DNA from: a virus
Virus record (IMG/VR): IMGVR_UViG_3300035034_001226
Span: 22,721-86,720 of that record
Length of the DNA: 64,000 nucleotides
Reading direction: 5' to 3' (one strand)
Positions 55,999 through 56,160 of the stretch are shown here, piece after piece. Under the pieces are notes generated by a model that saw only the letters and a list, made by a program, of their open reading frames with translations, searched no databases and had not been told where the DNA came from. Within the stretch, counting starts at the first letter, position 1, and the number at the start of each line of letters is the position of its first letter. Position numbers and translations under genes: made by a program.

Positions 55999-56074
55999 TG
56001 GTGCAGGTAGATACCTAGCAGTACCAACCTCCCCCTCCAATGGGGGTGCTCTTGCCTATTTGAGCTATACCTGC
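55999..56074 (-). tRNA. Non-canonical tRNA-like gene A (Pro-like TGG, variant T loop)
   Basis: GGTAC-TGCTAG-GTATC T arm; CCCCC-ATTGGA-GGGGG; CCA. Confidence 0.65.
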
Positions 56075-56083
56075 ATTCTAAAT

Positions 56084-56160
56084 TGGCGCGAGTAGATACC
56101 TAGCAGTACCATTTCTCCCAGTTCATTGGGAGCGTCCTTACCTATTTAGACTATACTCAC
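56084..56160 (-). tRNA. Non-canonical tRNA-like gene B (variant T loop, 8-nt anticodon loop)
   Basis: Identical T arm to gene A; CTCCC-AATGAACT-GGGAG; GCCA. Confidence 0.65.

What the first reader, a model, noticed from the sequence alone, without database searches (positions are those of the whole stretch)
55999..56160. Twin tRNA-like genes with an identical non-TPsiC T arm and 6- and 8-nt anticodon loops
Seen: both have perfect acceptor stems with CCA, an AAATAGGYAA D loop and exactly GGTAC-TGCTAG-GTATC, while their other stems differ but still pair, so the odd T arm looks selected. Established: staphylococcal non-proteinogenic tRNA-Gly species have altered T loops and feed cell-wall synthesis. 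They lie directly upstream of the glycan operon. Inference: non-ribosomal aminoacyl donors, toxin decoys or frameshift-promoting tRNAs.
Basis: partly seen in the sequence, partly recalled or inferred. Interest (0 to 1): 0.65.

Follow-up and report, generated by a model that had tools for sequence, protein, structure and literature searches.

The report
Twin phage tRNA look-alikes, six-base loops
A giant uncultured phage carries two side-by-side genes for tRNA-shaped RNAs that keep the tRNA body and CCA tail but have a codon-reading loop one base too short and a rebuilt T arm; a distant phage has a third, so they look like maintained non-decoding tRNA mimics whose job is untested.

Summary
Observation confirmed. 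A (56084-56160, minus) and B (55999-56074, minus) are near-perfect cloverleaves with encoded CCA in the tRNA array of an XacN1-like jumbo phage. ARAGORN and Rfam miss both; 60 shuffled windows give no such fold. One correction: both anticodon loops fold best as 6 nt, not 6 and 8. Between A and B all 11 acceptor and D pairs survive 10 substitutions (P about 0.001). I found one homolog, C, in a phage with 69% portal identity. C shares a 22-nt run over B's anticodon arm but has a different, also non-canonical T arm, so the exact T arm is not a family trait. The link to the glycan genes fails: ten relatives have that cluster without the twin upstream, and C is not next to it. No tRNA-dependent transferase was found (contig 30% complete). 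No synthetase identity set is shared. Best reading: processed, L-shaped, non-decoding tRNA mimics that bind or bait a host tRNA-targeting protein (40%). Expression could not be tested. The scan had not seen this family on other DNA, though it noted other anticodon-less phage mimics.

The parts
56084..56160 (-). tRNA-like gene A: 7-bp acceptor, G73, CCA; 6-bp anticodon stem with 6-nt loop AUGAAC; 4-nt variable loop; rebuilt T arm (C53-G61 closing pair, 6-nt loop keeping U54, C56, A58)
   Evidence: sequence; fold; no ARAGORN or Rfam call
55999..56074 (-). tRNA-like gene B: 7-bp acceptor, A73, CCA (U at 56075 could pair with A73); 5-bp C/G anticodon stem with 6-nt loop AUUGGA; 5-nt variable loop; same T arm as A
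   Evidence: homolog C at L076:18313-18390 = L085:1271-1348
56095..56110 (-). T arm of A (identical to that of B)
56010..56025 (-). T arm of B
56075..56083 (-). 9-nt A/T-rich spacer between A's CCA and B
56183..56257 (-). ordinary tRNA-Thr(UGU), 22 nt upstream of A; probably the same precursor transcript (inference)
55211..55984 (-). polysaccharide pyruvyltransferase gene starting 14 nt after B's CCA; a neighbour, not shown to be a partner
   Evidence: PF04230 E 4e-16; adjacency not conserved

Best explanation
A and B are non-decoding tRNA mimics. Shown: tRNA-type secondary structure with encoded CCA; retention of the nucleotides that build the L shape (U8, A14, G18G19, U54, C56, A58, Levitt pair A15-U48, which is G15-C48 in homolog C); 6-nt anticodon loops; loss of the universal G53-C61 pair and R57 in all three genes, in two different ways. 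Inferred: they are transcribed with tRNA-Thr and cut out by host tRNA-processing enzymes; they are poorly charged and poorly delivered by EF-Tu, so stay off the ribosome; and they act by occupying a host protein that recognises tRNA, most likely a tRNA-targeting defence nuclease or modifying toxin that reads the anticodon stem-loop. A and B would present two different loops on the same body.
For: Compensatory stem changes. Homolog C lies in a phage with portal 69% and pyruvyltransferase 58% identity. B and C share 22 nt exactly, a 9/10 anticodon stem and a 6/6 loop, whereas B shares at most 11 nt with any of 197 ordinary tRNAs, and same-anticodon tRNAs of the two phages share a median 4/10 stem bases. 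Acceptor identity is not shared (1-72 pair G-C, G-C, U-A; base 73 G, A, A), which fits a role not needing one amino acid. The A/B T stem scores +2.0 kcal/mol by Table 2 of PMC3239215, against at most +1.1 for the 36 ordinary tRNAs of this phage that could be scored. The phage already has ordinary tRNA-Phe(GAA) and tRNA-Pro(UGG). It carries other shrunken-loop tRNA-like genes, an RNA ligase and a CCA enzyme. Defence nucleases that read the anticodon loop are established: AriB (10.1101/2024.01.02.573894), PrrC and RloC (PMC2610378).
Against: Only one homolog outside this phage, none for A, and none in XacN1 or four other cultured jumbo phages. The pattern is a mosaic (A-B share T arm and D loop, B-C share the anticodon arm), so the 22-nt match may reflect recombination rather than long selection. 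The C/G stem is low in complexity. +2.0 kcal/mol is matched by an ordinary XacN1 tRNA-Gln, G49C65/G50U64 stems can be non-additive, and C scores an ordinary +0.7. I found no paper showing a non-decoding phage tRNA acting as a decoy; known anti-defence phage tRNAs are working decoders.
Confidence: 0.4

Rival explanations
1. Decayed or neutral tRNA remnants: a broken tRNA was duplicated and shuffled by recombination inside a fluid tRNA array, kept only weakly (for example because a paired body helps the precursor RNA to be processed).
For: Rare: nothing in IMG/VR patterns, GTDB, INPHARED or plasmids. Mosaic sharing among A, B and C. C resembles an ordinary tRNA-Ile body (Cellulophaga phage, 76-81%). 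This array holds several odd tRNA-like pieces.
Against: Every acceptor and D pair is kept, with four double changes (P about 0.001). CCA and the tertiary nucleotides are intact in all three, with a compensated Levitt pair. Damage falls only on the anticodon loop and the T-loop closing pair.
Confidence: 0.2
2. Non-ribosomal aminoacyl donors: charged by an anticodon-blind synthetase, shielded from EF-Tu and used by a tRNA-dependent transferase (glycan, lipid or protein substrate).
For: Intact acceptor and CCA; weak predicted EF-Tu stem in A and B, as in staphylococcal NP tRNA-Gly (PMC12256121). B has A73, A15-U48 and A20a, which from my own knowledge are E. coli LeuRS elements.
Against: No shared identity set: no G3.U70 (Ala), no long arm (Ser), no U73 or NCC (Gly); A has G73 and C has G15-C48. 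No FemAB, Acetyltransf_6, MprF-type or Leu/Phe transferase in the contig (only 30% complete). Glycan adjacency is not conserved.
Confidence: 0.17
3. Ribosome-active odd decoders: the loops read A32-U33-GAA-N (A) and A32-U33-UGG-N (B), i.e. Phe- and Pro-type anticodons missing one 3' base, and promote frame slips at UUU or CCC runs.
For: U33 and Phe/Pro triplets are in the expected place. B has an alternative 7-nt UGG loop with four C-G pairs. Natural frameshift suppressors derive from tRNA-Pro (PMC11122139).
Against: The 7-nt register has little weight in B (6-nt register 0.97) and keeps only 3 pairs in C. From my own knowledge, ProRS needs G72 (B has C72, C has A72) and PheRS prefers A73 (A has G73). 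The T loop lacks the features the ribosome and EF-Tu favour. Known suppressors have 8-nt, not 6-nt, loops.
Confidence: 0.1
4. Cis-acting processing elements that give the downstream glycan-gene mRNA a defined 5' end or stability.
For: B's CCA lies 14 nt before the pyruvyltransferase start codon, with the Shine-Dalgarno-like sequence in between. A relative also has a tRNA directly before this gene (L144).
Against: In L144 an ordinary tRNA-Thr fills that place, so no odd tRNA is needed. Homolog C is followed by tRNA-Val, not by this gene.
Confidence: 0.08

Closest known systems
Bacterial/phage class I elongator tRNA (Rfam RF00005); nearest body is the tRNA-Ile(GAU) of Cellulophaga phages Calle_1 and phi40:1
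   Same: Cloverleaf, length, U8/A14/G18G19, 4-5-nt variable loop, encoded CCA, position in a tRNA array. C is 76-81% identical to that tRNA-Ile.
   Different: 6-nt anticodon loop, no G53-C61 pair, no UUCR T loop in A and B, no RF00005 hit even at E 10.
Staphylococcal non-proteinogenic tRNA-Gly (NP1, NP2, NEW)
   Same: T stem lacking the strong EF-Tu pairs; proposed to act off the ribosome.
   Different: NP tRNAs keep a UCC anticodon, are charged by GlyRS, lose G18G19 and serve Fem transferases (PMC4574755, PMC12256121). Here G18G19 is kept, there is no Gly anticodon or U73, and no Fem gene was found.
YrlA Y RNA and the predicted b7a-tRNA
   Same: tRNA mimics that keep the elbow contacts and do not decode.
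   Different: YrlA has a closed acceptor end without CCA and a Ro60-binding module; b7a-tRNA is defined by lying beside Band-7 and RtcB genes (10.1101/312249). A and B have a free CCA end, and there is no Band-7 gene in the contig.
T5 anti-defence tRNAs (tRNA-Lys against PARIS)
   Same: Phage tRNA-array genes with altered anticodon arms in the setting of tRNA-cleaving defence.
   Different: Those are working decoders that replace the cut host tRNA; these cannot present a normal anticodon and would act as bait or inhibitor.
+1 frameshift suppressors tRNA-SufA6 and SufB2
   Same: Non-7-nt anticodon loop; Pro-type triplet in B.
   Different: Suppressors have an 8-nt loop on an otherwise normal, chargeable tRNA; here the loop is shortened and the T arm rebuilt.

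Membership tests
Canonical elongator tRNA (RF00005) | Cloverleaf with 7-bp acceptor and NCCA | tested here: met
Canonical elongator tRNA (RF00005) | U8, A14, G18G19, Levitt pair 15-48, U54, C56, A58 | tested here: met
   read from the sequences of A, B and C
Canonical elongator tRNA (RF00005) | 7-nt anticodon loop | tested here: not met
   6-nt loop favoured: A 0.87, B 0.97, C 0.86
Canonical elongator tRNA (RF00005) | G53-C61 pair and UUCR T loop of 7 nt | tested here: not met
   C53-G61 with a 6-nt loop in A and B; 4-bp stem with a 9-nt loop in C
Canonical elongator tRNA (RF00005) | Reaches the Rfam gathering score or an ARAGORN call | tested here: not met
Canonical elongator tRNA (RF00005) | Charged and used by the ribosome | not testable with these tools
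   needs bench work
Non-proteinogenic tRNA-Gly | UCC anticodon and GlyRS identity (U73) | tested here: not met
   loops lack UCC; base 73 is G, A, A (PMC4574755)
Non-proteinogenic tRNA-Gly | G18G19 replaced by UU or CU | tested here: not met
   GG kept
Non-proteinogenic tRNA-Gly | T stem weak for EF-Tu | tested here: inconclusive
   A/B +2.0 but C +0.7; an ordinary tRNA-Gln also scores +2.0
Non-proteinogenic tRNA-Gly | Fem-type or other tRNA-dependent transferase as user | tested here: inconclusive
   none in a 30%-complete contig; host unknown
YrlA | Closed acceptor end without CCA; Rfam match | tested here: not met
YrlA | Next to a Ro60/Rsr gene | not tested
   TROVE family not searched; the direct neighbours are tRNA-Thr and the pyruvyltransferase gene
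b7a-tRNA | Next to Band-7 and RtcB genes | tested here: not met
   no Band_7 match in the contig
b7a-tRNA | Its sequence and structure consensus | not testable with these tools
   my look-up of the source paper failed
+1 frameshift suppressor tRNAs | 8-nt anticodon loop on a normal tRNA body | tested here: not met

The most novel reading that the evidence does not exclude
An undescribed class of phage RNA inhibitors: CCA-ended tRNA mimics with a 6-nt anticodon loop and a T arm rebuilt to stay off EF-Tu and the ribosome, which jam host anticodon nucleases. A 6-nt loop is what a tRNA would look like after RloC-type wobble excision and religation, so they could be encoded product mimics.
Probability: 0.15. 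Interest if true: 0.85.

Novelty: new variant of a known kind. Interest (0 to 1): 0.5.

Why it matters
Why phages carry large tRNA arrays is an open question, and the known answers involve working tRNAs. These genes are invisible to ARAGORN and Rfam, yet look maintained, so arrays may also hold RNA decoys that annotation misses. Natural cytosolic-type tRNA bodies with a 6-nt anticodon loop and no G53-C61 pair turned up in none of my paper searches. At 76-78 nt they are cheap to synthesise, so charging, EF-Tu binding and protection against tRNA-cleaving defence systems can be tested directly.

Tried and rejected
Exact T-arm search in IMG/VR: all 40 hits are chance, none in a tRNA context. D-loop plus T-arm patterns: 4 chance hits in IMG/VR, 0 in JGI metagenomes. 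Anticodon-arm patterns: 0 in IMG/VR, 3 chance coding hits in GTDB, 1 true hit in JGI, the same phage as L076. blastn against phages and plasmids: nothing beyond weak ordinary-tRNA matches. Covariance models R1 and R2 over 25 viral records, 1.19 Mb of loci and five cultured jumbo phages: only A, B and C stand apart from ordinary tRNAs; most records are fragments and the genome search has a lossy first look. Partner-protein idea: the upstream 232-aa ORF is an orphan and no flanking ORF other than the array-wide ones is shared with C's locus. 'They replace the missing tRNA-Gly': rejected, no Gly features. Promoter and terminator scan was at chance level. The CCA-enzyme route to more relatives gave no DNA. 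No structure or complex prediction was run, as there is no candidate protein partner.

Full report
Setting. The window lies in a 105-kb viral contig, 34% GC, about 30% complete. Its major capsid protein is 70% identical to that of Xanthomonas jumbo phage XacN1. ARAGORN tRNAs in the window, all on the minus strand. The finding lies between tRNA-Thr(UGU) at 56183-56257 and a pyruvyltransferase, glycosyltransferase-like and methyltransferase-like gene run.

Observation. Two cloverleaves are present: A at 56084-56160 and B at 55999-56074, 9 nt apart, 22 nt after tRNA-Thr and 14 nt before the pyruvyltransferase start. Both have 7-bp acceptors, CCA, U8-A9, a 4-bp D stem, a 10-nt D loop with GG and the same 16-nt T arm. 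The cloverleaf is the MFE and centroid of both. A strict cloverleaf search gives 13 counts in the window and none in 60 shuffles. Neither ARAGORN, even at a lowered threshold, nor Rfam at E 10 detects them. A second assembly has the same sequence. One correction: A folds with a 6-bp anticodon stem and a 6-nt loop (0.87), and B with 5 bp and 6 nt (0.97), so both loops are 6 nt.

Signs of selection. A and B differ at 10 of 22 paired acceptor and D positions, yet all 11 pairs hold, four through double changes; random substitution does this with P = 0.0011. The nucleotides that build the tRNA elbow and core are kept: U8, A14, G18G19, U54, C56, A58 and A15-U48. What is lost is the G53-C61 pair (flipped), U55, R57 and one loop base. 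An L-shaped fold is therefore likely (inference).

Relatives. The exact T arm occurs in no other tRNA-like context in IMG/VR or JGI metagenomes. Fetching DNA around pyruvyltransferase homologs and scanning it for cloverleaves gave one homolog, C, at L076:18313-18390, also in JGI contig L085. Its phage is clearly diverged (portal 69%, prohead protease 66%, pyruvyltransferase 58%), and blastn links C to B at E 2e-5. C shares 22 consecutive bases with B across the 3' D strand and anticodon arm, including the 6-nt loop. B shares at most 11 with any of 197 ordinary tRNAs, and same-anticodon tRNAs of the two phages share a median 4 of 10 anticodon-stem bases. C's acceptor is different (3/7 on the 5' strand, U1-A72), its Levitt pair is G15-C48, and its T arm is odd in another way: a 4-bp stem and 9-nt loop, again without G53-C61 and with a pyrimidine at 57. 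C's body resembles a Cellulophaga-phage tRNA-Ile. No further member was found in 1.19 Mb of loci, XacN1, Xoo-sp13, RAS14, RsoM2USA or Vibrio phage 2.275.O. So the family has three distinct sequences in two phages. What all share is the 6-nt loop, a non-canonical T arm, an intact core and CCA. Caveat: A-B share the T arm while B-C share the anticodon arm, so B may be a recombinant, and the 22-nt match may then be recent exchange rather than long selection.

Glycan link. In ten relatives the pyruvyltransferase gene is preceded by a protein gene or, in L144, by an ordinary tRNA-Thr. In most of them it sits at the head of the tRNA array. C lies 7.5 kb away from it, between tRNA-Ala and tRNA-Val. 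No FemAB, Acetyltransf_6, MprF-type or Leu/Phe transferase family matches the contig, though 70% of the genome is missing. The adjacency is therefore most likely incidental.

Charging and ribosome use. By Table 2 of PMC3239215 the A/B stem (G49-C65, G50-U64, U51-A63) scores +2.0 kcal/mol, the weakest among 176 phage tRNAs scored, tied with one ordinary XacN1 tRNA-Gln; this phage's own maximum is +1.1; C scores +0.7. That paper warns that G49C65/G50U64 stems can be non-additive. This is suggestive for A and B only. From established identity rules (my own knowledge), none of the three has G3.U70, a long variable arm, U73 with an NCC anticodon, or G72, and the 1-72 pair and base 73 differ among them. 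No single amino acid is indicated. B alone has LeuRS-like elements. The loops can be read as A32-U33-GAA-N and A32-U33-UGG-N, Phe- and Pro-type triplets lacking one base; the phage has normal tRNAs for both.

Mechanism. The most economical reading is a non-decoding mimic: body and CCA are kept so that it is processed and recognised as tRNA, while loop and T arm keep it out of translation. The part best conserved between phages is the anticodon arm, which is what defence nucleases such as AriB, PrrC and RloC read, so I favour bait or inhibitor of such an enzyme (0.40). The same array holds other shrunken-loop tRNA-like genes, an RNA ligase and a CCA enzyme. Everything after structure is inference. 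Rivals: weakly kept remnants (0.20), non-ribosomal aminoacyl donor (0.17), frame-slipping decoder (0.10), mRNA-processing element (0.08).

Comparison. Not a canonical tRNA (loop, T arm and Rfam score fail). Not a staphylococcal NP tRNA-Gly (no UCC, G18G19 kept), though it may work like one in avoiding EF-Tu. Not YrlA (free CCA end) and not in a b7a-tRNA context. Not a +1 suppressor. The XacN1 paper lists only canonical tRNAs, suppressors and one pseudogene. Searches for 6-nt anticodon loops and tRNA decoys found no paper; the library lacks most subscription journals. Earlier notes of this scan hold no look-alike sequence on other DNA but describe other anticodon-less phage mimics.

Verdict. 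A real and probably maintained feature, apparently undescribed, and a new variant of the tRNA-mimic kind. Interest 0.5.

Noticed in passing
window 50712-50781 (-): tRNA-shaped gene with CCA whose anticodon arm is a 5-bp G/C stem closed by only 3 nt (z -2.3).
   Followed up: partly
window 42977-43047 (-): tRNA-shaped element with a normal T arm, a 4-bp anticodon stem and the 6-nt loop ACGAAC, one base from A's loop; no encoded CCA. blastn gave only weak ordinary-tRNA hits.
   Followed up: partly
window 62020-62111 (-): tRNA-like gene with U73, a long variable region and a UCC triplet in a poorly paired anticodon arm; perhaps an atypical tRNA-Gly. No ordinary tRNA-Gly is called in the contig, while the other 19 amino acids are covered.
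   Followed up: partly
window 52916-53035 (-): 120-nt tRNA-like gene with about 45 extra bases in the anticodon region (Rfam tRNA 34 bits; ARAGORN reads an intron).
   Followed up: no
G000:C1:87947-88020 (-), just outside the window: tRNA with a CUA (amber) anticodon; relatives have one at the same place (L045:1208, L076:8083, L137:7948, L143:7030) and XacN1 has two.
   Followed up: no
window 47827-47903, 52306-52382, 59063-59139 (-): tRNA-Leu genes of 77 nt, without the long variable arm.
   Followed up: no
window 59449-59526 (-): tRNA-Pro(UGG) with A37 in place of the usual G37 and no unpaired base between the D and anticodon stems.
   Followed up: no
L076:16660-17085 (+): About seven copies of a ~29-nt repeat with ~30-nt unique spacers directly after an IS605 OrfB/Cas12f-like gene (15298-16446): looks like a small CRISPR array in the tRNA region.
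   Followed up: no
L085:388-461 (+): Ala-like tRNA gene with a 6-nt anticodon loop and a bulged acceptor, in the same phage as homolog C.
   Followed up: partly
L093:4998-5071 (-): tRNA-like gene with a 4-bp anticodon stem, 6-nt loop, normal T arm and C73 in another XacN1-like phage.
   Followed up: no
L089:46455-46538 (+), XacN1: Unannotated CCA-ended tRNA-like gene with a GUC loop and an enlarged T arm.
   Followed up: no
L144:933-1008 (+): ARAGORN calls a tRNA with a UUA (ochre) anticodon in the array of a relative.
   Followed up: no
L141:154-229 (+), Cellulophaga phage Calle_1: The real tRNA-Ile lies about 50 nt downstream of its GenBank annotation (102-174).
   Followed up: partly
window 54592-55984 (-): The pyruvyltransferase plus glycosyltransferase-like gene pair is conserved across XacN1-like metagenomic phages (50-58% for the second gene), but the pyruvyltransferase search found no hit in XacN1.
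   Followed up: partly
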